Source: an uncultured Bdellovibrionales bacterium (GTDB lineage: Bacteria > Patescibacteriota > Minisyncoccia > Moranbacterales > UBA2206). From it: a DNA stretch of 64,000 bases. The notes beneath the pieces are model-generated. The model had not been told where the DNA came from. It saw nothing but the letters and a program-made list of their open reading frames with translations, and did no database searches. Positions within the stretch are counted from its first letter, which is position 1. Every line of letters begins with the position of its first letter. The stretch spans positions 17,248 through 81,247 of the forward strand of contig CAZWRY010000002.1 of NCBI GenBank assembly GCA_964636505.1. Reading direction: 5' to 3'. Made by a program: the position numbers and the translations under genes. Shown one piece after another: positions 13,460 to 60,780 of the stretch.

Positions 13460-13566
13460 ATTAAAAGATTTATTTAATGGGAAATTATTCTAAAAATAAG
13501 TTCCTGTTTGCAATAACTAATAGTACAGCAATCCTTTTTGTTTGTAAACCCCTTATCAACAAAAGA

Positions 13567-13604
13567 AGCCCGGAAAGGATAACGATCCTTTCCGGGCTTT
13601 TTGG
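13567..13604 (-). terminator. Strong bidirectional rho-independent terminator downstream of uvrC.
   Basis: 13-bp perfect stem AGCCCGGAAAGGA / TCCTTTCCGGGCT with a 6-nt loop and T-runs on both strands. Confidence 0.75.
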
Positions 13605-13787
13605 TCTTTCCCAATCAGCCTCAACGGATTCCTCGGACTCCGTTGAGATTTTTTAAATAACCGCTCTTATCATCTTCCTAACCTCCCTCTTGGATTTGGA
13701 TTTGGTTTTTCCCCGTTTTTCCGGGCTCCGGCTCCATTAGCCTCCTTTCTTAGGATTTTTGGCAACTCTCTTTTTATCCTATTTTAC

Positions 13788-15086
13788 TTATTTTGTCAAG
13801 AATTCGCTTTTTCTCATCTTTCTGTGATATCCAATTGCAAAACGATGCGCTTCATCTATGATTCTACCTAATAACTCTCTATCGTCTGCTATTTTTTTAA
13901 AATCATTTGAAAATTCTGTAATTGGAAATTGCTTGCCCGCTGGGCACAGCCAGAGATCAGAAATTAGAAATTGGAAATTGGAAGTTTTTCGTGTAGGACC
14001 CTTGGCAACAGCAATAATCGGAACTTTTATTCCTAAGCTCCTTAATAATTTCTCTGCCATGTTTAAGTGTCCTTGCCCTCCATCCAAGAGAATCAAGTGA
14101 GGCATCGGCCAATCATTTTTAAATCTACGTAGCAGCACCTCTTGCATCATTCCGATATCATTAATGCCCTCAACGGTTCTGATTTTGAATTTTCGGTACT
14201 GAGATTTGTTTGGCTGGCCTCCCTCAAAAACCACCATGGAGCCGACTGCGTTTTTTCCGCTAATATTGGAAATGTCGTACGCTTCAATACGAATAGTTTT
14301 TAGTTTATGTTTTTTAGTTTTTAGATCAATTTCAAAATCTTTTGAAATCAAAGCCACATCACGAATATGATTTAGCGCAAAAACTTTATTTCTTATTTCC
14401 GCCGCCTTTTCAAATTCATGATTCTTGGCTGCTAACTGCATTTCTTTTTCCAGTGTTTTAACCAGATTTTTTTTCTTACCTTCCAAAATCATCTGGATAC
14501 CATGGATATTTTTTTGATAATCTTTGAGAGTAATTGCACCGGCGTGTGGTCCCGGACAAAGTCCCAACTGAAAATCCAAACAGCCTTTTTCGGTTTCCTG
14601 CTTATTGGAATGAAAGGGGAAAATACGGCGAATTATTTTGAGCGCTACCTCCATTTGTTTTTTAAAAGTATATGGACCAAAAGCAGTTCGTAGTTTATAG
14701 TTTTTGGTTTGTAGTTTTTTAAAATCAATTTCCGTTTTTCGTAAAATCAAAACTCGCGAAAATTCTTCTTTAGTAATAACGAAATAGGAAAATGATTTAT
14801 CATCTTTAAGTTCAATGTTATATTTCGGCTGATATTTTTTGATCAAATTGCTTTCCAAAATCAAAGCCTCCAGAACAGAATCAGTCTTTTGAAAGTCAAT
14901 ATCGGCAACTTTCGGCATCATAACTTCAATATGATTTCTGGTTTCCGCGCCCCGAAAGTACGAAGCCACCCGGCTTTTTAAATTAGTTGCTTTTCCAATA
15001 TATAAAATATTTTTGGCTTTATCTTTGAAAATATATACTCCGGGATCTGATGGCAATTTGGCAATTTTTATTTTCATCTTTGACAT
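13788..15086 (-). CDS. uvrC: Excinuclease ABC subunit C (UvrC), short form without the C-terminal HhH2 domain.
   Basis: 432 aa; N-terminal GIY-YIG (PGVYIFKDKAKNILYIGKATNLKSRV), UVR domain (EFEKAAEIRNK), RNase H-like endonuclease region (RIEAYDISNISG...LLDGGQGHL...HRFAIGYHRK). Contains in-frame heptamer-repeat insertions. Confidence 0.85.
   Translation of the reverse strand: MSKMKIKIAKLPSDPGVYIFKDKAKNILYIGKATNLKSRVASYFRGAETRNHIEVMMPKVADIDFQKTDSVLEALILESNLIKKYQPKYNIELKDDKSFSYFVITKEEFSRVLILRKTEIDFKKLQTKNYKLRTAFGPYTFKKQMEVALKIIRRIFPFHSNKQETEKGCLDFQLGLCPGPHAGAITLKDYQKNIHGIQMILEGKKKNLVKTLEKEMQLAAKNHEFEKAAEIRNKVFALNHIRDVALISKDFEIDLKTKKHKLKTIRIEAYDISNISGKNAVGSMVVFEGGQPNKSQYRKFKIRTVEGINDIGMMQEVLLRRFKNDWPMPHLILLDGGQGHLNMAEKLLRSLGIKVPIIAVAKGPTRKTSNFQFLISDLWLCPAGKQFPITEFSNDFKKIADDRELLGRIIDEAHRFAIGYHRKMRKSEFLTK
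13921..13985. repeat. Miniature heptamer-repeat element inside uvrC, in frame: ATTGGAAATTG, a GC-rich hairpin segment, then AGAAATT AGAAATT GGAAATT GGAAG.
   Basis: Shares the 11-mer ATTGGAAATTG and AGAAATT tandem units with the rpoB-rpoC spacer at 60730..60775, and a GGCAAG-containing GC-rich segment with the uvrB insertion at 21855..21880. Confidence 0.7.
14295..14324. repeat. AGTTTTT-type heptamer tandem array (4 units) inside uvrC.
   Basis: AGTTTTT AGTTTAT GTTTTTT AGTTTTT; a second array lies at 14685..14720. Confidence 0.6.
14685..14720. repeat. AGTTTWT heptamer tandem array (5 units) inside uvrC.
   Basis: AGTTCGT AGTTTAT AGTTTTT GGTTTGT AGTTTTT; encodes the Lys-rich KKLQTKNYKL segment. 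Confidence 0.6.
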
Positions 15087-21090: not shown

Positions 21091-23142
21091 TCATTTTACC
21101 TTCAATTTTCGTAACTCGGAGATTTCATCGCGAATAATAGCCGCACTTTCAAACTGAAGACTGCGAGCCGCTTCTTTCATATCCTTTTCTCTTTGCTTAA
21201 TATACCCCGCAATGTTTTCCAGGCTTTCCAAATTGACAAATTCTTTGGAAATTTCCGGTTTGATTTCATGATCCACAATAGATTGAATTTTTTTCTGAAT
21301 AGTCTGAGGAGTAATGTGATGCTTTTTATTATACTCAGCTTGAATTTTTCTTCGGCGATTGGTTTCATCAATCGCTCGCTTCATTGAACCGGTAATTTGA
21401 TCGGCATACAAAATAACCCGCCCGGAAACATTTCTGGCCGCACGTCCGATTGTTTGAATAAGTGAAGTTTCACTGCGCAAAAATCCTTCCTTATCCGCAT
21501 CCAAAACCGCTACTAATTTAACTTCCGGCAAATCCAGTCCTTCACGCAATAAGTTTACTCCAACCAGAACATCAATTTCCCCCCGACGCAATTTTTCCAA
21601 AATTCTGACCCGATCCAAGGTTTCCACATTAGAATGCAAATATTCCGCTTTGATTTTATTTTCCTTTAAGAAATCGGATAAATCTTCGGCCATTTTTTTG
21701 GTAAGCGTCGTAATTAAAACTCGACCATTATCCTCCACTACTTTTCCAATTTCAATTAAAACATCTTTGACTTGTCCTTGGGTTGATTTTATCGCGAGCT
21801 CAGGATCAATGAGACCTGTTGGACGAATAACTTGCTCCACAATACCGTATTTTGCATCTTGCCTACCGGCGAGACAGATATTTTTTAATTTGTTTTTAAT
21901 TTGCGATTTGGAATTTATTTGGAATTTAGAATTTAGAATTTGTGATTTGATATATTCATACGGCCCAGGTGTCGCTGAAGTAAAAATTACCTGGTTTGTT
22001 TTTTCTTCAAATTCAGAAAATCTGAGCGGACGATTTTCATAGGCACTGGGCAAACGAAAACCATTATCAATCAAAGCGGTCTTGCGAGCCCGATCACCAT
22101 TAAACATGGCATTCAGCTGCGGCACGGTCACATGCGATTCATCAATGACCAAAAGATAGTCTTTATTAAAGTAATCCATCAATGTATATGGCGGTTCGCC
22201 TTTTTTTCTTTCAGTCAAATACAAAGAATAATTTTCAATACCATTGCAATAGCCGACTTCGCGCATCATTTCAATGTCCTGCTTGGTTCTTCTTTTCAAT
22301 CTTTCCGCTTCCAATAATTTATTTTCTTTTTTCAAATAAGCGACTCTGCCTCGCATCTCTATCTCTATCCTTTTTAATGCTTCTTCCATCAAGCCTTCAG
22401 GAACCACAAAATGTTTGGCTGGATAAATCAAAGTTTGTTTCAAGGTTCCCAGCTCTTCACCGGTCAAAAAATCATATTCCACAATTTTCTTTACCCTGCC
22501 CTTTTCAGCATTAATTCTGGTCACAATTTCGCGATCTGTCGGCATAATTTCCAATGTTTCACCGGTAAGTCTGAATTTGCCGCGGCTAAGCAATTCGCTT
22601 CTTTGAAACTGCATATCAATCAACTCTTTTATTTTTTCTTCTCGTTTGAATTCTTCGCCCACTTTTACTTCAAAACTGATATCCCGATAAAAATCCGGCG
22701 AACCCAAACCATAGATACAAGAAACAGAAGCCACAATAATCACATCACTCCGTGAAAGCAAGGCGGAAGTTGAAGCATGGCGCAAACGATCAATTTCATC
22801 ATTAATCTGCGCCTCTTTTTCAATATATGTGTCCGAAGAAGCGATGTAGGCTTCCGGCTGATAATAGTCATAGTAAGAAACAAAATATTCCACCGCATTC
22901 TTGGGAAAAAACACGCGAAATTCTTGCGCCAATTGGGCTGCCAAAGTTTTGTTGGGCGCAATCACCAAGGTTGGTTTTTGTACTTTTTCAATGACATTGG
23001 CAATTGTGAAAGTTTTACCCGATCCCGTCACACCCAAAAGCGTCTGGAATTTTTGTCCCTTTTTGAGTCCTTCCGTCAGCTTTTTAATCGCCTCTGGCTG
23101 ACTTCCGGCCGGTTTAAATTTTTTATTCAGAATAAATTTCAT
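21091..23142 (-). CDS. uvrB: Excinuclease ABC subunit B (UvrB) carrying an in-frame insertion of about 28 aa.
   Basis: 683 aa; helicase motifs (GVTGSGKT, DESH), beta-hairpin region, C-terminal UVR domain (FESAAIIRDEI). The insertion YIKSQILNSKFQINSKSQIKNKLKNICLAGRQDAKYG lies between ...SATPGPYE and IVEQVIRPTGL. Confidence 0.92.
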   Translation of the reverse strand: MKFILNKKFKPAGSQPEAIKKLTEGLKKGQKFQTLLGVTGSGKTFTIANVIEKVQKPTLVIAPNKTLAAQLAQEFRVFFPKNAVEYFVSYYDYYQPEAYIASSDTYIEKEAQINDEIDRLRHASTSALLSRSDVIIVASVSCIYGLGSPDFYRDISFEVKVGEEFKREEKIKELIDMQFQRSELLSRGKFRLTGETLEIMPTDREIVTRINAEKGRVKKIVEYDFLTGEELGTLKQTLIYPAKHFVVPEGLMEEALKRIEIEMRGRVAYLKKENKLLEAERLKRRTKQDIEMMREVGYCNGIENYSLYLTERKKGEPPYTLMDYFNKDYLLVIDESHVTVPQLNAMFNGDRARKTALIDNGFRLPSAYENRPLRFSEFEEKTNQVIFTSATPGPYEYIKSQILNSKFQINSKSQIKNKLKNICLAGRQDAKYGIVEQVIRPTGLIDPELAIKSTQGQVKDVLIEIGKVVEDNGRVLITTLTKKMAEDLSDFLKENKIKAEYLHSNVETLDRVRILEKLRRGEIDVLVGVNLLREGLDLPEVKLVAVLDADKEGFLRSETSLIQTIGRAARNVSGRVILYADQITGSMKRAIDETNRRRKIQAEYNKKHHITPQTIQKKIQSIVDHEIKPEISKEFVNLESLENIAGYIKQREKDMKEAARSLQFESAAIIRDEISELRKLKVK
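21845..21952. repeat. Miniature heptamer-repeat element inside uvrB, in frame: a GC-rich segment plus a GGAATTT / AGAATTT tandem array.
   Basis: GATTTGGAATTTATTTGGAATTTAGAATTTAGAATTTGTGATTTG plus GCCTACCGGCGAGACAG; the encoded ICLAGRQ parallels LCPAGKQ encoded by the uvrC element. Confidence 0.65.
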
Positions 23143-23333
23143 TGCTATATTTTATTTAGAACAGAACTTACACGTTTGACAATAAAAATCTGTCTCGGAG
23201 GCGTGAATTTGAAATTGATTGTTTCATGCCGTAGCACAGATTTTTAGGGGCAAACATGTGAGTTCTTTGGAATTTGATTTTATTAAAAATAAAATTCATA
23301 TTTTATTTGATAACCAATAATACTCCAAAGAAA

Positions 23334-23363
23334 CAAAAAAATCCAGGTTCACTGGATTTTTTG
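23334..23363 (-). terminator. Rho-independent terminator downstream of the mannose-1-P guanylyltransferase gene (bidirectional).
   Basis: Stem ATCCAG / CTGGAT, loop GTTCA, flanked by A7 and T6 runs. Confidence 0.6.
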
Positions 23364-23366
23364 TTT

Positions 23367-45543: not shown

Positions 45544-45723
45544 ATGGAATTTCTCACACTTGAACAAGTGGCTAAATACTTTGGAGTTCATCCTCGCACC
45601 GTTATGCGTTGGCTTAAGCAAGGCAGTCTCAAAGGTTATAAGTTGGGCAAAGGCAAAACGGCTCTTTTACGCATCCCCAAATCAGAAGTAAGTAAATTTT
45701 TAGAAAAACATAAAATCAAATGA
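45544..45723 (+). CDS. Excisionase / MerR-like HTH DNA-binding small protein; its stop overlaps the recombinase start (ATGA).
   Basis: 59 aa, below the ORF-track cutoff: MEFLTLEQVAKYFGVHPRTVMRWLKQGSLKGYKLGKGKTALLRIPKSEVSKFLEKHKIK; helix-turn-helix_17-like. Confidence 0.55.
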   Translation: MEFLTLEQVAKYFGVHPRTVMRWLKQGSLKGYKLGKGKTALLRIPKSEVSKFLEKHKIK

Positions 45724-47360
45724 ACTCGTTGAATGATGACAAATCAATAAAGCTTATAGCCACTTACGCTCGTGTTTCTGAAAATCCTGATGATGAAGAA
45801 GGGACTATAAAAAATCAGTCAATGACTTTTAATGAATTGGCTGAAAAGAATAATTGGCAGATAATCCAAGAATATAAAGATGATGATTGGAGTGGCGACA
45901 TTTTGGAACGACCCGCACTTGATAAACTTCGGCTTGATGCAAAAAACAAAAACAGAGTTTGGGAAGCAGTCCTTATTTATGACCCAGACCGTTTGGCTCG
46001 CCGATACTCTTATCAAGAACTGGTGATGGATGAATTGCGGGAAGCAGGCATTGAGGTGATTTTTGTAACCGTTCCCGCTCCCCGAAATACTGAAGAAAAA
46101 ATAATGTATGGCTTCAAGGGCTTGTTTGCCGAGTATGAACGAGCAAAAATTGCCGAGAGATTTCGTTTAGGCAAACTTCGCAAAGCCAGAAACGGACATA
46201 TTTTGACAACACAACCTTTATACGGCTATAACTATATTCCAAAACAAGGTGATAGGCACGGCTATTATGAAATCAATCCGATAGAAGCAAGAGTTGTTAA
46301 AATGGTATTTTCTTGGATTGCTAATGACGGAATGACTTTGAGGGGCGTGGTAAAAAAATTGCACGAGTTGGGCATCAGACCACGCAAAAGCAAAAGGGAT
46401 GTTTGGAACACGGGCACATTGAGCACAATGCTTCGGCATAGAGGATATATTGGTGAGGCACACTGGGGCAGTTCGTATGCAGTTGTTCCTGAAAGGCCGC
46501 TCAAAAATGAAAAATATAAAAAAGTAAAAAAGACCAGCCGCAGGATTAGACCAAGAGAAGAATGGATAACAATTCCTGTTCCAGCAATTATTGAGACAGA
46601 ATTATTTGAAAAAGCGAACACTCAATTGCAAGCAAATTTTGCATTATGCAAACGTAACAAAAGAAATGAATATCTCTTGGCTGGTAAAATTGAATGCGTC
46701 TGTGGCAGAAAAAGAACTGGCGAAGGATATTACAATAAGCCAAATCTTTATTATCGTTGCAGTGATAGAGTGCTAAATTTTCCCTTACCATCAAAATGCA
46801 AGGAAAGAGGCATCAATGCCAGAGTAGCTGATGAGCTTGTTTGGAAAAAAATTGCAAGACTAATGAGTTCTCCAGAATTGCTGGCAGAGCAAGTCAATCG
46901 CTGGTTCAAAAACAAGCAAAGTAAAACGGGAACGGTATTGATTGATATTGAAGCTCTAAAAAAAGAAGTTGAAAAACTGGGCAAACAAGTTGAACGATAT
47001 AATAAAGGCTATGGAGTGGGAGCGTTCACTCTGGATGAGCTCAAGGAATACACTGACCCTCTACGAGAGCAAATTAGCCAGCTTCAAGCCCAAATTTCAA
47101 AAGCTACAAGTGAAAGCAATCAAACTCATCTGAAAGCACCAAATGAGCAAGAAATGGAAGCATTTGCCGAAAAAGCGAGAAAGACCCTTCAAAACTTGAG
47201 TTTTACTCTCAAACGTGCGATAATTTTAAATACTGTTGAAAAAGTAATTGCTTCAAAAGAACATTTACGGGTAAACGGTTATTTACCCCTAAATGTCTCA
47301 TTGTGTTATGAAGATAGGAATTGTAGGACTGCCGAATGTGGGCAAAAGCACTCTGTTTAA
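45720..47360 (+). CDS. Large serine recombinase (resolvase, recombinase and zinc-ribbon domains).
   Basis: 546 aa; catalytic YARVSE serine, DxxRLAR motif, recombinase domain, Cys-rich zinc ribbon (CVCGRK...CSDR), coiled coil; 3' end overlaps ychF by 50 nt. Confidence 0.88.
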   Translation: MNSLNDDKSIKLIATYARVSENPDDEEGTIKNQSMTFNELAEKNNWQIIQEYKDDDWSGDILERPALDKLRLDAKNKNRVWEAVLIYDPDRLARRYSYQELVMDELREAGIEVIFVTVPAPRNTEEKIMYGFKGLFAEYERAKIAERFRLGKLRKARNGHILTTQPLYGYNYIPKQGDRHGYYEINPIEARVVKMVFSWIANDGMTLRGVVKKLHELGIRPRKSKRDVWNTGTLSTMLRHRGYIGEAHWGSSYAVVPERPLKNEKYKKVKKTSRRIRPREEWITIPVPAIIETELFEKANTQLQANFALCKRNKRNEYLLAGKIECVCGRKRTGEGYYNKPNLYYRCSDRVLNFPLPSKCKERGINARVADELVWKKIARLMSSPELLAEQVNRWFKNKQSKTGTVLIDIEALKKEVEKLGKQVERYNKGYGVGAFTLDELKEYTDPLREQISQLQAQISKATSESNQTHLKAPNEQEMEAFAEKARKTLQNLSFTLKRAIILNTVEKVIASKEHLRVNGYLPLNVSLCYEDRNCRTAECGQKHSV

Positions 47361-48354: not shown

Positions 48355-48517
48355 CTTGACCATTTCCAGACCAGATGCTAAACTAAAAACAATCTAGAAA
48401 GACCAGGATTTTCCCGCCCGGAGTATTCAGGGATAGGAAAATATTCATCCGCAAGAAATGGCTTTCTTTGAGGATTTTTTAATACTTTAAGATATAAATA
48501 TAAAGCACGAAAATATT

Positions 48518-48564
48518 GAAATGTTTTGTTTCATGTTTCATGTTCTATGTTTTATGAGTGTATG
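48518..48564 (+). repeat. NNNNATG heptamer ladder (CATGTT units) ending at the rpsF start codon.
   Basis: ATG triplets at 48521, 48533, 48540, 48547, 48554 and 48562 (spacing 12,7,7,7,8); the last is the S6 start. Confidence 0.65.
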
Positions 48565-49053
48565 AAATACGAACTGTTTTATCTAGTCGGTGTTTCGAAA
48601 GAAGCCGAACTGCCAAAAATAAAAGAAGATCTCAGAAATATCGTTTTGGAAGAAGGTGGTGTTTTTGAAGAGAAAGAAACCGAAGAAAAAAGAAAACTTT
48701 CCTATGCAATCAAACATGAAACCCATGGCATCTATATCGCCCAAAGATTTGAACTTGCTGAAAATGAAAAGATTCAAACTATCATCCGAAAAGTTAACCT
48801 TCATCCTAATGTTCTAAGATTTTTAATCAGCAAAACTAAAGATTTACCAGGGTTGAGAACCAAAGAAGAAAGAATCAAAGGATTTCCTGTTCAACCAGTC
48901 AAAGAAAAACCTGCAAAAAAATCCCCAGAAAAGTCAGTGAAAAAAATTGAAAAAACTGAAGTCCAAAAAGAAAAGACCGAGAAAGAAACCGCTAGTGAAA
49001 AAATTGACAATGAAGATATTGACAAAAAATTAGAAGAAATTTTAAATATTTAA
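48563..49053 (+). CDS. rpsF: 30S ribosomal protein S6 with a Lys/Glu-rich C-terminal extension.
   Basis: MKYELFYLVGVSKEAELPKIKEDL...; S6 fold followed by a KE-rich tail; classic rpsF-ssb-rpsR order. Confidence 0.8.
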
Positions 49054-49054
49054 T

Positions 49055-49190
49055 TTGTCCCTCACCATTTTTCAGCTGCTTACAAATAAAAAATAAATAA
49101 TTTTTGGAAATATAAATAATTATTTAATAACAACTTAATTATTAATAAAACCCTCGCCCTAGGCGAAAGCCGAAAAATGGTGAGGGACAA
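49055..49190. repeat. 19-bp perfect inverted repeat (TTGTCCCTCACCATTTTTC ... GAAAAATGGTGAGGGACAA) enclosing a 98-nt AT-rich loop between rpsF and ssb.
   Basis: Left arm 49055..49073, right arm 49172..49190; the right arm contains the ssb GAGGGA Shine-Dalgarno, 11 nt before the ATG at 49199. Confidence 0.8.
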
Positions 49191-49993: not shown

Positions 49994-50038
49994 TATTTTC
50001 ATGTTATATGTTCCATGTTTTATGTTTCATGAATTATG
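49994..50038 (+). repeat. Perfect 7-nt NNNNATG ladder of six units ending at the efp start codon.
   Basis: ATG at 50001, 50008, 50015, 50022, 50029 and 50036, each exactly 7 nt apart; the last is the efp start. Confidence 0.7.
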
Positions 50039-50593: not shown

Positions 50594-50894
50594 ATCATAG
50601 AACATGCGCAACATAAAACATGCCTGCCCGCTAACGCGGGACGCAACCATGGAAACATACAACGGACTTGTTTAATTTTCTGCAATATTTTTCATCTCTT
50701 ATTTAAAGAAAAAGCCGAGCTTTGAAAAATTTTTCTCTTAAATATAAACAAAAAAACTCTGAACCAATCAGAGTTTTATTTTTATTTTCTATTTTTAAAA
50801 TATCCTTAAGCTTATTTCAATAATCTTTTTTTATTATTGTAAATATTTTTACCTCTATTATTGTTTCAAAAAAGCTTTTTGATATTTTGTTCTT

Positions 50895-51059
50895 TTATAA
50901 TATTCCGGCAGTGCTAATGAAGGTGAACACCATCACTGGGACCATGGCAACCAGAATGGCGAAGTTTCTTTCTTCTTCTCTTTTTATTTGTTTCGCCCGC
51001 TTTCGACACTCGGGACAATCTGACCCGCACCCTTCTTCTTTTTTGATATCTTCTTCCAT
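50895..51059 (-). other. Cryptic 54-codon ORF (CxxxCxxC N-terminus plus C-terminal TM helix) inside a GC-rich structured island; could equally be a small ncRNA.
   Basis: Minus-strand ATG...TAA translates to MEEDIKKEEGCGSDCPECRKRAKQIKREEERNFAILVAMVPVMVFTFISTAGIL. It has no clear SD and uses GC-rich codons atypical for the genome. Confidence 0.25.
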
Positions 51060-60640: not shown

Positions 60641-60780
60641 ATTATAAATAAATTTTCAAATCTCAATTTTCAATTTTCAATCAATGATCAATTTTCAATT
60701 TTTTAATTTCAAAAATTTAGTCATTGAATCATTGGAAATTGTTTAGAAATTAGAAATTAGAAATTAGAAATTTGTTAATC
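60641..60780. repeat. AT-rich heptamer tandem arrays (TCAATTT x about 5, then ATTGGAAATTG plus AGAAATT x4) filling the rpoB-rpoC spacer.
   Basis: Direct reading; shares the 11-mer ATTGGAAATTG and AGAAATT units with the uvrC-internal element. Confidence 0.75.

What the first reader, a model, noticed from the sequence alone, without database searches (positions are those of the whole stretch)
48518..48564. Matching CATGTT/NNNNATG ladder upstream of rpsF
ATG triplets at 48521, 48533, 48540, 48547, 48554 and 48562 (spacing 12,7,7,7,8), the last being the S6 start. It uses the same TTTCATG/TTCTATG/TTTTATG units as the efp leader 1.4 kb downstream, which argues that the pattern is a shared element and not chance.
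Basis: seen in the sequence. Interest (0 to 1): 0.55.

Follow-up and report, generated by a model that had tools for sequence, protein, structure and literature searches.

The report
Conserved heptamer repeat array before rpsF
The "ATG ladder" is real: it is one arm of a family of 7-base tandem-repeat elements that these uncultivated Moranbacteria carry directly in front of many start codons, much like the still-unexplained heptamer repeats of cyanobacteria and giant sulfur bacteria, and it is conserved far beyond neutral expectation although its function has not been shown.

Summary
ATGs sit at 48521/33/40/47/54/62, and no shuffled strand (0 of 600) gave a chain of 5 or more. A motif model built only from other genomes hits four places in the window: the rpsF ladder (E 2e-8), the efp ladder (2e-6), and two adjacent stretches of an inverted copy after the efp stop (0.006 and a weak 2.7). 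The ladder is a (GTTTCAT)n heptamer array, orthologous to a perfect (GTTTCAT)x4 at the same site in three other Moranbacteria. It differs from them at 3-4 of 31 bases, while 58-71% of four-fold synonymous sites differ. It belongs to a lineage-wide class of period-7/8 arrays (about 23 and 16 per 100 kb, against 0.5 in shuffles). These usually occur as two roughly complementary arms that fill the gap between a stop codon and the next start codon. Units differ between loci and many have no ATG. Downstream genes are diverse, and include a tmRNA and a tRNA spacer. The genome is almost free of Shine-Dalgarno sequences. A conserved promoter, structured leader and terminator upstream place the ladder in the rpsF 5' UTR. 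The closest known kinds are cyanobacterial STRR repeats and the TAACTGA repeats of Beggiatoaceae, whose functions are also unknown. My favoured reading is an RNA-level element of the SD-less translation-initiation region (moderate confidence).

The parts
48356..48384 (+). Sigma-70-type promoter of the rpsF operon (TTGACC, 17 nt, TAAACT with upstream TG)
   Evidence: Consensus scan. TTGACY lies at -38/-40 from the leader start in 23 of 24 relatives.
48394..48480 (+). Conserved structured leader RNA ending in a terminator-like hairpin and a T-run; it places the ladder inside the rpsF 5' UTR
   Evidence: Model R2 hits once per Moranbacteria locus, always upstream of rpsF. In the central hairpin 12 of 14 pairs are compensatory, and 0 of 500 shuffles reach the observed values. 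No Rfam match.
48506..48513 (+). Remnant of the distal (complementary) arm: one CACGAAAA unit
   Evidence: Aligns with the ACACGAAACA units of the distal arms in L008, L014 and L015. The rest of the arm is at random-level identity.
48525..48556 (+). Proximal heptamer array TTTGTT-(TCATGTT)(TCATGTT)(CTATGTT)(TTATG): the reported ATG ladder
   Evidence: TRF period 7 x4.3. R1 full-length hit, E 2.4e-8. 27-28 of 31 nt identical to L008/L014/L015 although synonymous sites are saturated.
48562..49053 (+). rpsF (ribosomal protein S6, with a K/E-rich C-terminal tail)
   Evidence: Pfam Ribosomal_S6.
49055..49190 (+). Non-repetitive long-range stem (arms 49055-49077 and 49168-49190, 23 nt, 96% complementary) spanning nearly the whole rpsF-stop to ssb-start gap
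   Evidence: the repeat finder I1. Fold z -8.7, pairing nt 1 to 138 of the 145-nt gap.
49997..50035 (+). efp ladder: CATGTTA TATGTTC CATGTTT TATGTTT CATGAAT T, directly before the efp ATG at 50036
   Evidence: TRF. R1 hit 50008-50031, E 1.8e-6. In relatives without a ladder the rpsR stop lies only 0-30 nt from the efp ATG.
50597..50663 (-). Same unit in reverse orientation (AACATR on the + strand) starting 4 nt after the efp stop, interrupted by a GC hairpin (CCCGC-TAAC-GCGGG, 50627-50640); a distal-type arm with no clear partner
   Evidence: R1 hits on the minus strand at 50597-50622 (E 0.006) and 50652-50663 (E 2.7). Sequence. No convincing downstream partner in the fold.
60651..60772 (-). 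A second, complete paired-array element of another unit type (AATTTCT x4 distal, GAAAATT-type proximal on the minus strand) between rpoB and rpoC, ending 11 nt before the rpoC start
   Evidence: TRF, array table, sequence, gene identities by Pfam.

Best explanation
The ladder is the gene-proximal arm of a short-tandem-repeat element of the STRR/TAACTGA kind. In its complete form this is 4-5 copies of a 7-8-nt unit, a short spacer, then 4-5 copies of the roughly reverse-complementary unit, filling the gap between one gene's stop and the next gene's start. In this window the rpsF copy has kept its proximal arm (GTTTCAT-type units ending 5 nt before the S6 AUG) and lost most of its distal arm. 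Shown here: it is non-random; it is orthologous to arrays in other Moranbacteria; it is much more conserved than synonymous sites; and it belongs to a lineage-wide class. Inferred from the conserved promoter-leader-terminator layout: it lies in the transcribed 5' UTR. Inferred mechanism: the array acts on the mRNA as part of the translation-initiation region of a genome that hardly uses Shine-Dalgarno pairing. It would be a periodic, G-poor platform contacted by the 30S subunit or by an RNA-binding protein with a site size of about 7 nt (S1- or cold-shock-like OB folds). Where the distal arm is present, it would fold the platform into a hairpin that hides the upstream AUGs, leaves the true AUG just 3' of the stem, and may also insulate or stabilise the cistron. 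Confidence that it is a member of this element class is about 0.9. Confidence in the RNA-level, translation-linked mechanism is about 0.4.
For: Non-randomness and shared model. Orthology: perfect (GTTTCAT)x4 at the same site in L008/L014/L015. Constraint: among those three, four-fold sites differ 34-42% but the 30-31-nt array is identical while the loop has fully diverged. Window versus those three: 58-71% of four-fold sites differ, the ladder differs at 3-4 of 31, and the 31 nt upstream are identical at only 10-12 of 31. The efp element of L012/L014/L015/L016 is about 95% identical at dS 0.17-0.49, and the TACGAAA arms of L012 and L013 are about 91% identical at dS about 0.66. Class properties: period-7/8 arrays at 23.2 and 15.9 per 100 kb in Moranbacteria loci, against 0.5 in shuffles and 3.1/1.5 in non-CPR loci. 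27 adjacent array pairs are nearly all inverted complements. Hairpins in relatives have z -2.3 to -8.6. The proximal arm ends between -3 and +14 nt from the start codon, and in several genes the last ATG of the ladder is the start codon, with Pfam models beginning at residue 1-4. Copy number peaks at 4-5. SD-less context: 7 of 55 starts have an SD-like 4-mer. 5' UTR placement: conserved TTGACY promoter, covarying leader with terminator, and only 21-39 nt from T-run to ATG in ladder-less relatives. When only one arm survives next to a gene, it is usually the proximal one (window rpsF, window efp, L003 ychF, L010 and L020 rplT, against one distal-only case after efp). Precedent: TAACTGA repeats overlapping the expected RBS in an SD-poor genome, with S1, Csp or CsrA proposed as binders. 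STRR hairpins between co-transcribed genes have been proposed to act in transcript stability or translational coupling.
Against: There are no transcript, ribosome-profiling or binding data for any of these organisms. The window's own rpsF and efp leaders do not fold better than shuffles (z -1.7 and -1.0), so any hairpin role is lost here. Complete elements also sit 7 nt before a tmRNA and between two tRNAs, and between convergent genes around a bidirectional terminator, where translation initiation is irrelevant. Which arm is T-rich and gene-proximal is not consistent across unit types (rpoC has an A-rich proximal arm). G.U wobble asymmetry does not favour the sense strand. In the CACATAA/CATGTTY family the arms are each regular but only partly complementary. 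Most relatives have no array at rpsF or efp, so it is dispensable. High similarity between species could partly reflect homogenisation or gene conversion from other copies rather than selection at this locus; L016 carries an L012-type element in an L014-like background.
Confidence: 0.4

Rival explanations
1. Non-adaptive by-product. Heptamer arrays arise by replication slippage (7 nt being a favoured slippage unit), are copied to the other arm by template switching in hairpin-prone spacers, are tolerated in short intergenic gaps, and then decay. On this view the window's ladder is a decaying relic with no function.
For: Arrays also occur inside coding genes: uvrB has the insertion IKSQILNSKFQINSKSQIKNKLKN, and uvrC carries three arrays. 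The window's copies are eroded. Presence at a given site is patchy and unit types turn over or swap between close relatives. Heptanucleotide repeats are reported as the most abundant long simple-repeat class in most genomes, with polymerase slippage proposed (Mrazek 2007 as summarised in PMC4679880).
Against: The arms are far more conserved than four-fold synonymous sites, while the loops between them diverge freely. Copy number is the same (4) in three species and has a mode at 4-5 rather than a geometric tail. Irregularities within arms are conserved between L012 and L013.
Confidence: 0.2
2. A structure-only RNA element. The two arms form a long hairpin that serves as an RNase III or other processing site, or as a 5'/3' stabiliser that insulates cistrons in polycistronic transcripts, independently of translation initiation. 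The tandem-repeat nature would then be incidental.
For: Complementary arms are the rule. In the YATGTTN family the spacer itself is palindromic, giving an almost continuous stem. Folds are significant. Elements lie between tRNAs and before a tmRNA. A non-repetitive 23-bp stem bridges the rpsF stop and the ssb start in the window. STRR hairpins have been proposed to increase transcript stability.
Against: In the window the partner arm is gone while the ladder is conserved. Many stems have a mismatch in every repeat, and some families pair poorly. Arms are conserved in sequence rather than covarying, and the wobble asymmetry is inconsistent.
Confidence: 0.15
3. DNA-level operator arrays. The repeats would be binding sites for repeat-reading DNA-binding proteins, as ribbon-helix-helix repressors read 7-bp heptads or 8-bp met boxes, controlling transcription of the downstream gene.
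For: The 7-8-bp periodicity, the direct and inverted arrangements, the 4-5 copies and the sequence (not only pairing) conservation of the arms all fit cooperative binding of small dimers. The comparison with omega and MetJ operators rests on my own knowledge and was not tested.
Against: At least eight unrelated unit types occur within single small genomes, which would need as many regulators. No sigma-70-like promoter lies in or next to the ladders, whereas this lineage clearly uses canonical TTGACY/TAnnnT promoters. The arrays sit inside operons and 5' UTRs, downstream of the promoter and terminator. The same unit precedes unrelated genes.
Confidence: 0.1
4. The ATGs themselves are the point. 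They would act as decoy or stand-by start codons, or start a short regulatory upstream ORF: MFCFMFHVLCFMSV, whose TGA overlaps the S6 ATG, and MLYVPCFMFHELC before efp.
For: Both ladders contain upstream ORFs that end at or just after the gene's start codon. ATG is commoner in proximal than in distal arms (63 against 21), with CAT the mirror image. In two families the distal arm has ACG where the proximal arm has ATG, and the arm before the non-translated tmRNA has ACG instead.
Against: Many arrays in the same positions have no ATG at all. A 7-nt period puts ATGs in all three frames, so no single peptide is defined. The ATG counts come from few independent lineages. There is no SD or other signal for the upstream ORFs.
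Confidence: 0.08
5. A contingency locus: copy-number changes of the heptamer switch or tune expression of the downstream gene (phase variation).
For: Tandem repeats between promoter and start codon are known to do this in some pathogens (examples summarised in PMC4679880).
Against: Copy number is fixed at 4 in L008, L014 and L015 despite 34-42% synonymous divergence. The downstream genes are housekeeping genes.
Confidence: 0.02

Closest known systems
TAACTGA heptamer direct repeats of marine Beggiatoaceae, some Cyanobacteria and Bacteroidetes (MacGregor 2015, PMC4679880)
   Same: [quoted passage not shown] Downstream genes show no functional pattern but include ribosomal-protein operons. Some repeats lie inside ORFs. 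Function is untested, and a post-transcriptional role with S1, Csp or CsrA as candidate binders has been proposed.
   Different: There, one unit (TAACTGA) dominates and almost all sets are direct (169 direct, 1 indirect). Here there are many unit families per genome (GTTTCAT, TTTCGTA, TTATGTG, ATGTTAA, TTACTAG, AAATTT types and others), usually as two inverted arms. The start codon can itself be the last repeat unit. The host is a different phylum (CPR/Patescibacteria).
Cyanobacterial STRR (short tandemly repeated repetitive) sequences
   Same: Usually 7-bp units in several unit families per genome, intergenic, able to form hairpins between co-transcribed genes (hupS-hupL). Function is unknown, with transcript stability or translational coupling suggested (PMC2670836). 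They can also invade genes, such as the RNase P RNA gene (Vioque 1997, as cited in PMC7593598).
   Different: The taxon and unit sequences differ. Tight abutment to start codons and conservation measured against synonymous sites are, to my knowledge, not described for STRR.
Long simple sequence repeats with 5-11-nt units (Mrazek et al. 2007, as summarised in PMC4679880)
   Same: Heptanucleotide units are the most abundant class, the phylogenetic distribution is sporadic, and slippage is the proposed origin.
   Different: That is a purely compositional category. It does not predict paired inverted arms, fixed copy number or sequence conservation.
Heptad/octad operator arrays of ribbon-helix-helix repressors (omega of pSM19035, MetJ met boxes); from my own knowledge, not tested
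   Same: 7-8-bp units in direct and inverted arrays of several copies.
   Different: Those have one unit per regulator and lie at promoters. Here there are many units per genome, no promoter in the arrays, and a location within transcribed spacers.
REP/REPIN and MITE-like intergenic palindromic elements; from my own knowledge, not tested
   Same: Dispersed, multi-copy, hairpin-forming intergenic elements. Near-identical copies occur at different sites in one genome (two TACGAAA elements flanking ssb in L012).
   Different: REP arms are not tandem arrays of a short unit. No associated transposase was looked for.

Membership tests
Start-codon-proximal heptamer direct repeats (TAACTGA-type, MacGregor 2015) | Tandem direct repeats of a 7-nt unit, 2-6 copies per set | tested here: met
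   TRF period 7, 4.3 copies at 48527-48556 and 5.0 copies at 49997-50031. The class mode is 4-5 copies.
Start-codon-proximal heptamer direct repeats (TAACTGA-type, MacGregor 2015) | Located within a few nucleotides upstream of a start codon, in forward orientation, over the expected RBS | tested here: met
   The array ends 5 nt before the S6 ATG and 4 nt before the efp ATG. In relatives and metagenome loci the end lies at -3 to +14 nt.
Start-codon-proximal heptamer direct repeats (TAACTGA-type, MacGregor 2015) | Shine-Dalgarno sequences rare in repeat-containing regions and in the genome | tested here: met
   7 of 55 ORF starts in the window have an SD-like 4-mer, and there is none upstream of rpsF or efp apart from a weak GAGTG.
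Start-codon-proximal heptamer direct repeats (TAACTGA-type, MacGregor 2015) | Downstream genes functionally diverse, including ribosomal-protein operons | tested here: met
   Pfam: S6, EF-P, ADK, SecY, TrmD, HisRS, HolB, FtsW, GT2, MBL, YmdB.
Start-codon-proximal heptamer direct repeats (TAACTGA-type, MacGregor 2015) | The unit is TAACTGA, with related heptamers rarely repeated | tested here: not met
   Units here are GTTTCAT/YATGTTN and at least seven other types. It works like that family but is not the same sequence family.
Cyanobacterial STRR | 7-bp tandem units, several unit families, dispersed in intergenic DNA | tested here: met
   Period-7/8 arrays at 23.2 and 15.9 per 100 kb, nearly all intergenic, with multiple unit families.
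Cyanobacterial STRR | Inverted arrays able to form hairpins between co-transcribed genes | tested here: inconclusive
   Met in relatives (27 inverted pairs; z -2.3 to -8.6) and at rpoB-rpoC in the window. Not met for the window's rpsF and efp ladders, whose partner arms are eroded (z -1.7 and -1.0).
Cyanobacterial STRR | Host is a heterocyst-forming cyanobacterium, with canonical STRR unit sequences | tested here: not met
   The host is Candidatus Moranbacteria by its EF-P relatives. The units are different.
RHH-type heptad/octad operator arrays | Arrays overlap or flank a promoter | tested here: not met
   No sigma-70-like site lies in either ladder. The conserved rpsF promoter lies about 140 nt upstream, before the leader and terminator.
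RHH-type heptad/octad operator arrays | One unit consensus per regulator, with a cognate small DNA-binding protein | not tested
   Many unit types per genome argue against it. No search for a binding protein was made.
Phase-variable simple-sequence contingency locus | Copy number varies between close relatives | tested here: not met
   There are four copies in each of L008, L014 and L015 at 34-42% synonymous divergence.
Regulatory leader peptide / upstream ORF | A defined upstream ORF conserved as a peptide, with its own initiation signal | tested here: inconclusive
   Upstream ORFs exist and end at the gene start. However, ATGs fall in all three frames, no SD is present, and ATG-free arrays occupy the same sites in relatives.
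S6:S18-binding rpsF 5' UTR motif (Fu et al. 2014), considered for the upstream leader at 48394-48480 and not for the ladder | Stem-loop with a bulge holding two conserved cytosines; H1 sequesters the ribosome-binding site | tested here: inconclusive
   No Rfam family matches the region even at E up to 10. The Moranbacteria leader has an invariant internal loop (C / A-U-A) in a covarying hairpin and ends in a terminator 21-39 nt before the ATG, rather than pairing with the start region.

The most novel reading that the evidence does not exclude
In these Shine-Dalgarno-less CPR bacteria the heptamer arrays would be a modular substitute for the ribosome-binding site. About four 7-nt units would be read one per domain by a multi-OB-fold protein (S1 or an array of cold-shock proteins) to recruit the 30S subunit to the AUG that ends the array. 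The complementary distal arm would act as a built-in anti-enhancer, opened when the upstream cistron is translated or by helicases or temperature. This would give a general, sequence-swappable device for translational coupling and control, and it would also explain the long-unexplained STRR and TAACTGA repeats.
Probability: 0.15. Interest if true: 0.8.

Novelty: new member of a known kind. Interest (0 to 1): 0.42.

Why it matters
Intergenic heptamer repeats (STRR, TAACTGA, "long simple sequence repeats") have been known for decades without a demonstrated function. This window and its relatives show that the same kind of element is pervasive in a candidate-phyla-radiation lineage that barely uses Shine-Dalgarno sequences. 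They also add something the earlier descriptions I read do not report. The arms are conserved far beyond synonymous sites while the loops are free, copy number is held at 4-5, and the array can end exactly at the start codon. That argues the repeats are functional and gives concrete, testable constructs, such as (GUUUCAU)4 with or without its partner arm in front of a reporter. It also matters for annotation: start-codon calling in these genomes is ambiguous inside ATG-containing arrays. As a by-product, the analysis uncovers a covariation-supported leader RNA with its own conserved promoter and terminator upstream of rpsF, which is absent from Rfam.

Tried and rejected
(1) Known RNA family: Rfam finds nothing at the ladders or anywhere in the window at gathering thresholds, and only noise at E up to 10. 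(2) Promoter inside the ladder: no sigma-70-type match. TTGAAA-17-CATGTT (rpsF) and TTGATT (efp) fall below the scan's criteria, whereas the true promoter upstream is canonical and conserved. (3) Translation-gene regulon: rejected, because the same ladder precedes unrelated genes. (4) Sense-strand RNA signature from G.U wobbles: about half the pairs fold better as the antisense strand, so the test is uninformative. (5) Long-range pairing of the ladder with the S6 coding region (48528-48541 with 48709-48722, 93% complementary): the codons differ in L008/L014/L015, so this is chance. (6) The array after efp as the distal arm of a third complete element: no convincing downstream partner in the fold. 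(7) Arrays as this genome's terminators: ordinary GC-hairpin plus T-run terminators are present elsewhere in the window, and the arrays lack T-runs. (8) Complementarity of the unit to the 16S 3' end: could not be tested, because no 16S is present in any fetched DNA. (9) Literature on such repeats in CPR, Patescibacteria or Moranbacteria: none found in the searchable library.
Full report
OBSERVATION. The sequence reads ...GAAATGTTTTGTTTCATGTTTCATGTTCTATGTTTTATGAGTGTATGAAATAC..., with ATG at 48521, 48533, 48540, 48547, 48554 and 48562. The last ATG is the S6 start: Pfam Ribosomal_S6 profile position 1 aligns to residue 2, and the N-termini of relatives align there. Tandem Repeats Finder reports 48527-48556 as period 7, 4.3 copies, and the efp leader 49997-50031 as period 7, 5.0 copies. 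In 600 dinucleotide-preserving shuffled strands the longest ATG chain at 7/8-nt spacing was 4 (20 strands) and never 5 or more. The window has chains of 5 (rpsF) and 6 (efp). The only correction is that TTCTATG is not in the efp leader; it occurs as its reverse complement just after the efp stop.

SAME MOTIF MODEL. I built a sequence-only model from 12 ladders taken from other genomes (alignment A1). Searched over both strands of the 64-kb window, it hits four places: 48525-48556 (full length, E 2.4e-8), 50008-50031 (E 1.8e-6), 50597-50622 on the minus strand (E 0.006), and weakly 50652-50663 on the minus strand (E 2.7). So the two ladders are one element type, and a third copy in inverted orientation starts 4 nt after the efp stop.

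ORGANISM AND CONTEXT. EF-P relatives identify the source as Candidatus Moranbacteria (Patescibacteria/CPR); the best hits are 72-81% identical. The local gene order is serine recombinase, ychF, rpsF, ssb, rpsR, efp, then recA convergent. Only 7 of 55 ORF starts in the window have even a 4-mer Shine-Dalgarno match, and upstream regions are A/T-rich and nearly G-free.

ORTHOLOGY AND CONSTRAINT. At the same position, abutting the S6 start, L008, L014 and L015 carry a perfect (GTTTCAT)x4. It is preceded by a spacer and a distal arm of roughly reverse-complementary units (ACGAAAC). The window's array aligns column for column with them and keeps one distal unit (CACGAAAA, 48506-48513). Among L008, L014 and L015, 34-42% of four-fold degenerate sites in efp and rpsF differ. 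Even so, the 30-31-nt proximal array is identical, the loop is completely diverged, and the distal arm is partly diverged. The window is saturated against them (58-71% of four-fold sites differ), yet the ladder differs at only 3-4 of 31 positions, while the 31 nt immediately upstream are at random-level identity (10-12 of 31). Under a per-site neutral model with p = 0.6, the probability of 4 or fewer differences in 31 is about 1e-7. The efp element shared by L012, L014, L015 and L016 is about 95% identical including its loop, at dS 0.17-0.49. The TACGAAA/TTTCGTA arms of L012 and L013 are about 91% identical at dS about 0.66, with divergent loops. There is also turnover: L016 is closest to L014 (EF-P 99% identical) but carries the L012-type ATGCTAA element at rpsF.

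THE CLASS. In the window plus 27 Moranbacteria loci, arrays of period 7 and 8 dominate the tandem-repeat spectrum. They occur at 23.2 and 15.9 per 100 kb in the loci and 15.6 and 3.1 in the window. Shuffles give about 0.5-1.6, and 42 non-CPR loci from the same search give 3.1 and 1.5. Nearly all are intergenic. Of 27 adjacent array pairs, almost all are inverted complements rather than direct copies. Typical elements read: stop codon, 2-9 nt, distal arm of 4-5 units, AT-rich or palindromic spacer, proximal arm of 4-5 units, 4-14 nt, ATG. Units differ widely: TACGAAA/TTTCGTA, AGTAACC/TTACTAG, CACGTAA/TTATGTG, TTAACAT/ATGTTAA, TAAGAAG/CTTCTTA, CGAATCTA/ATTCGTAG and AAATTT types. Orthologous sites carry different units in different genomes; upstream of rplT, for example, L010 has TAGAATT, L011 AAATTT-type, L013 TTATGTG and L020 CATGTTC. 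The two arms give significantly stable folds in relatives (z -2.3 to -8.6). Copy number per arm has a mode at 4-5 and falls off sharply at 6 or more. The elements are not restricted to protein starts. One ends 7 nt before a tmRNA gene (L013), one fills the spacer between two co-oriented tRNAs (L004), and some enclose a GC hairpin or bidirectional terminator. Arrays also occur in frame inside uvrB and uvrC in the window. The window has a complete paired element of another unit type between rpoB and rpoC (60651-60772).

UNBIASED CONTEXTS FOR THIS UNIT. A metagenome scan for YATGTTN x3 + YATG returned, among unrelated microsatellites, a coherent set of contigs of about 33-40% GC with the full architecture. 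These have a distal CACATAA/AACATGN arm, a small palindromic spacer such as AAACG-TCGT-CGTTT, and a proximal YATGTTN arm. The gene's start codon is the last ATG of the ladder or lies within about 11 nt of it. Pfam identifies the downstream genes as adenylate kinase, an MBL hydrolase, a GT2 glycosyltransferase, HolB, YmdB, TrmD, SecY, FtsW and HisRS. Several profiles begin at residue 1-4, which confirms those start codons. So this is not a translation-gene regulon.

IS ATG THE POINT? ATG occurs 63 times in proximal arms and 21 times in distal arms, and CAT shows the mirror image (20 and 56). In two families the distal arm has ACG where the proximal arm has ATG, and the arm before the tmRNA has ACG. 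This suggests some orientation preference, but it rests on about six independent lineages, and many elements have no ATG at all. Both window ladders contain short upstream ORFs that end on the gene's start: MFCFMFHVLCFMSV, whose TGA overlaps the S6 ATG, and MLYVPCFMFHELC before efp. A 7-nt period puts ATGs in all three frames, however, and no initiation signal is evident.

WHERE THE LADDER SITS IN THE TRANSCRIPT. Between ychF and the ladder lies an 87-nt element (48394-48480) that is conserved upstream of rpsF in the Moranbacteria loci where rpsF was found. Model R2 gives 25 hits in 24 loci (L001 has two) and none elsewhere in 512 kb. Its central hairpin has compensatory changes at 12 of 14 pairs and 96% of cells paired. 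None of 500 shuffles reached the observed values on any measure, and sliding the partners drops pairing from about 90% to 40-55%. An outer helix (AGAAAGyCC with GGrCTTTCT) and a terminator stem followed by a T-run are moderately supported. A canonical promoter precedes it: TTGACY at -38/-40 in 23 of 24 loci, followed by a TAnnnT-like -10, often with TG. In relatives without a ladder, the T-run is only 21-39 nt from the S6 ATG, which leaves no room for another promoter. I therefore infer that rpsF is transcribed from this promoter by read-through of the leader's terminator, and that the ladder is an insertion into the short 5' UTR segment between terminator and start codon. Likewise, in relatives without the efp ladder the rpsR stop lies 0-30 nt from the efp ATG, so the efp ladder is an insertion into an operon spacer. 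No sigma-70-like site is found within either ladder.

WHAT DID NOT DISCRIMINATE. The G.U wobble asymmetry of the stems does not consistently favour the sense strand. The window's own rpsF and efp leaders do not fold better than shuffles (z -1.7 and -1.0). A 14-nt complementarity between the ladder and the S6 coding region is not conserved and is taken as chance.

INTERPRETATION. Shown: the ladder is a conserved, non-random heptamer array; it is orthologous across Moranbacteria; it is a member of a lineage-wide class of paired 7/8-nt arrays; and it lies at the start codon of an SD-less gene. Inferred: it is transcribed as 5' UTR. The favoured mechanism (about 0.4) is an RNA-level role in or around translation initiation. 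The proximal array would be a periodic, G-poor landing platform for the 30S subunit or for an OB-fold RNA-binding protein with a site size of about 7 nt. The distal arm, where present, would fold it into a hairpin that masks upstream AUGs, exposes the true AUG just 3' of the stem, and possibly insulates or stabilises the cistron. The points in favour are the tight abutment to start codons, the SD-less context, the conservation of the proximal arm where the distal arm has decayed, the survival of proximal rather than distal arms in one-armed cases, the fixed 4-5 copies, and the published precedent. The points against are the elements next to tmRNA and tRNA genes and around terminators, the inconsistent T-rich versus A-rich orientation across unit types, the dispensability in many relatives, and the complete lack of expression data. 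The rivals are: a slippage and template-switch by-product (0.2; supported by arrays inside uvrB and uvrC and by erosion and turnover, contradicted by the conservation and the fixed copy number); a structure-only processing or stability hairpin (0.15); DNA-level operator arrays (0.1); ATG decoys or an upstream ORF (0.08); and phase variation (0.02).

COMPARISON WITH WHAT IS KNOWN. The closest published descriptions are the following. (i) TAACTGA heptamer repeats of marine Beggiatoaceae, some cyanobacteria and Bacteroidetes: 2-6 copies, within a few nucleotides upstream of start codons, in an SD-poor genome, with diverse downstream genes including ribosomal-protein operons, some repeats within ORFs, and S1, Csp or CsrA proposed as binders (PMC4679880). 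(ii) Cyanobacterial STRR sequences: usually 7-bp repeats, hairpin-forming, found between co-transcribed genes, of unknown function, with transcript stability or translational coupling proposed (PMC2670836). (iii) The general finding that heptanucleotide units are the most abundant long simple repeats in most genomes (Mrazek 2007, as summarised). The Moranbacteria elements share the defining features of these kinds. They differ in unit sequences, in having many unit families per genome, in the regular pairing of inverted arms together with start-codon abutment, and in their host phylum. I found no paper describing them in CPR bacteria, but the searchable library is incomplete. I therefore file the finding as a new member of a known, functionally unresolved kind.

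VERDICT. Interest is moderate (0.42). This is not a new kind of system, but the conservation data make a long-standing question about heptamer repeats more testable, and the neighbouring leader RNA is a separate lead worth following.

Noticed in passing
window 48356-48480: A conserved sigma-70 promoter (TTGACY at -38/-40 in 23 of 24 relatives) drives an ~87-nt structured RNA upstream of rpsF. It has a strongly covarying hairpin (12 of 14 pairs compensatory) with an invariant internal loop (C opposite A-U-A), an outer helix that pairs with the loop of a terminator hairpin (a pseudoknot or alternative pairing), and a T-run. It is found once per Moranbacteria locus, and no Rfam family matches. 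It may be a CPR-type rpsF attenuator or leader; membership of the known S6:S18-binding motif was not shown.
   Followed up: yes
window 49055-49190: A 23-nt, 96% complementary long-range stem (TTGTCCCTCACCATTTTTCAGCT / AGCCGAAAAATGGTGAGGGACAA) bridges the rpsF stop and the ssb start, enclosing about 90 nt (fold z -8.7). It is a non-repetitive counterpart of the stop-to-start hairpins formed by the arrays.
   Followed up: partly
window 60651-60772: A complete paired-array element of a different unit type lies between rpoB and rpoC (AATTTCT x4 and GAAAATT-type arms on the coding strand). Its proximal arm ends 11 nt before the rpoC start.
   Followed up: partly
window 21882-21949 (uvrB); 13959-13983, 14294-14324, 14691-14719 (uvrC): Period-7 arrays lie in frame inside the coding sequence. 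In UvrB the array encodes a K/Q/N-rich insertion (IKSQILNSKFQINSKSQIKNKLKN) ahead of the IVEQVIRPTGL segment. This suggests the genome's tendency to expand heptamers also remodels proteins.
   Followed up: partly
window, all ORF starts: The genome is essentially free of Shine-Dalgarno sequences (7 of 55 starts with an SD-like 4-mer). Upstream regions are A/T-rich with T favoured at -1 (36 of 55) and A at -8 to -2.
   Followed up: partly
window 13460-13787 and 23143-23366 (minus strand): Two long intergenic regions fold far better than shuffles (z -4.1 and -6.8) but match no Rfam family, even at E up to 1. They may be unannotated non-coding RNAs or leaders.
   Followed up: partly
window 45720-47360: A large serine recombinase gene (Resolvase, Recombinase and zinc-ribbon domains) sits immediately upstream of ychF and overlaps its longest ORF. 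This may mark an integrated mobile element boundary.
   Followed up: no
L016 1593-1670 versus L014 2500-2569: Element swap between close relatives: L016 (EF-P 99% identical to L014) has an ATGCTAA-type element upstream of rpsF like the more distant L012, whereas L014 has the GTTTCAT type. This suggests replacement by recombination or gene conversion.
   Followed up: partly
L030 3300-3486 and 3853-4003: Another Patescibacteria genome has much longer paired octamer arrays, up to about 13 copies (ATGAGAGC / TGTTCTAA; AACATGGG / TCCAATGY), the latter running into the efp start codon.
   Followed up: no
L013 5000-5093; L004 6554-6655: Paired arrays lie directly next to RNA genes: one ends 7 nt before the tmRNA 5' end, and one fills the 102-nt spacer between tRNA-Leu and tRNA-Pro on the same strand.
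   Followed up: partly
L001 266-353 and 2541-2628: The rpsF leader RNA occurs twice with identical scores in one 8.5-kb locus. This may be a local duplication or an assembly artefact.
   Followed up: no
window 50895-51059 (minus strand): A small ORF lies in the 656-nt efp-recA gap and would encode a 54-aa protein with a CxxC..CxxC motif and a hydrophobic tail (MEEDIKKEEGCGSDCPECRKRAKQIKREEERNFAILVAMVPVMVFTFISTAGIL). It was not examined.
   Followed up: no
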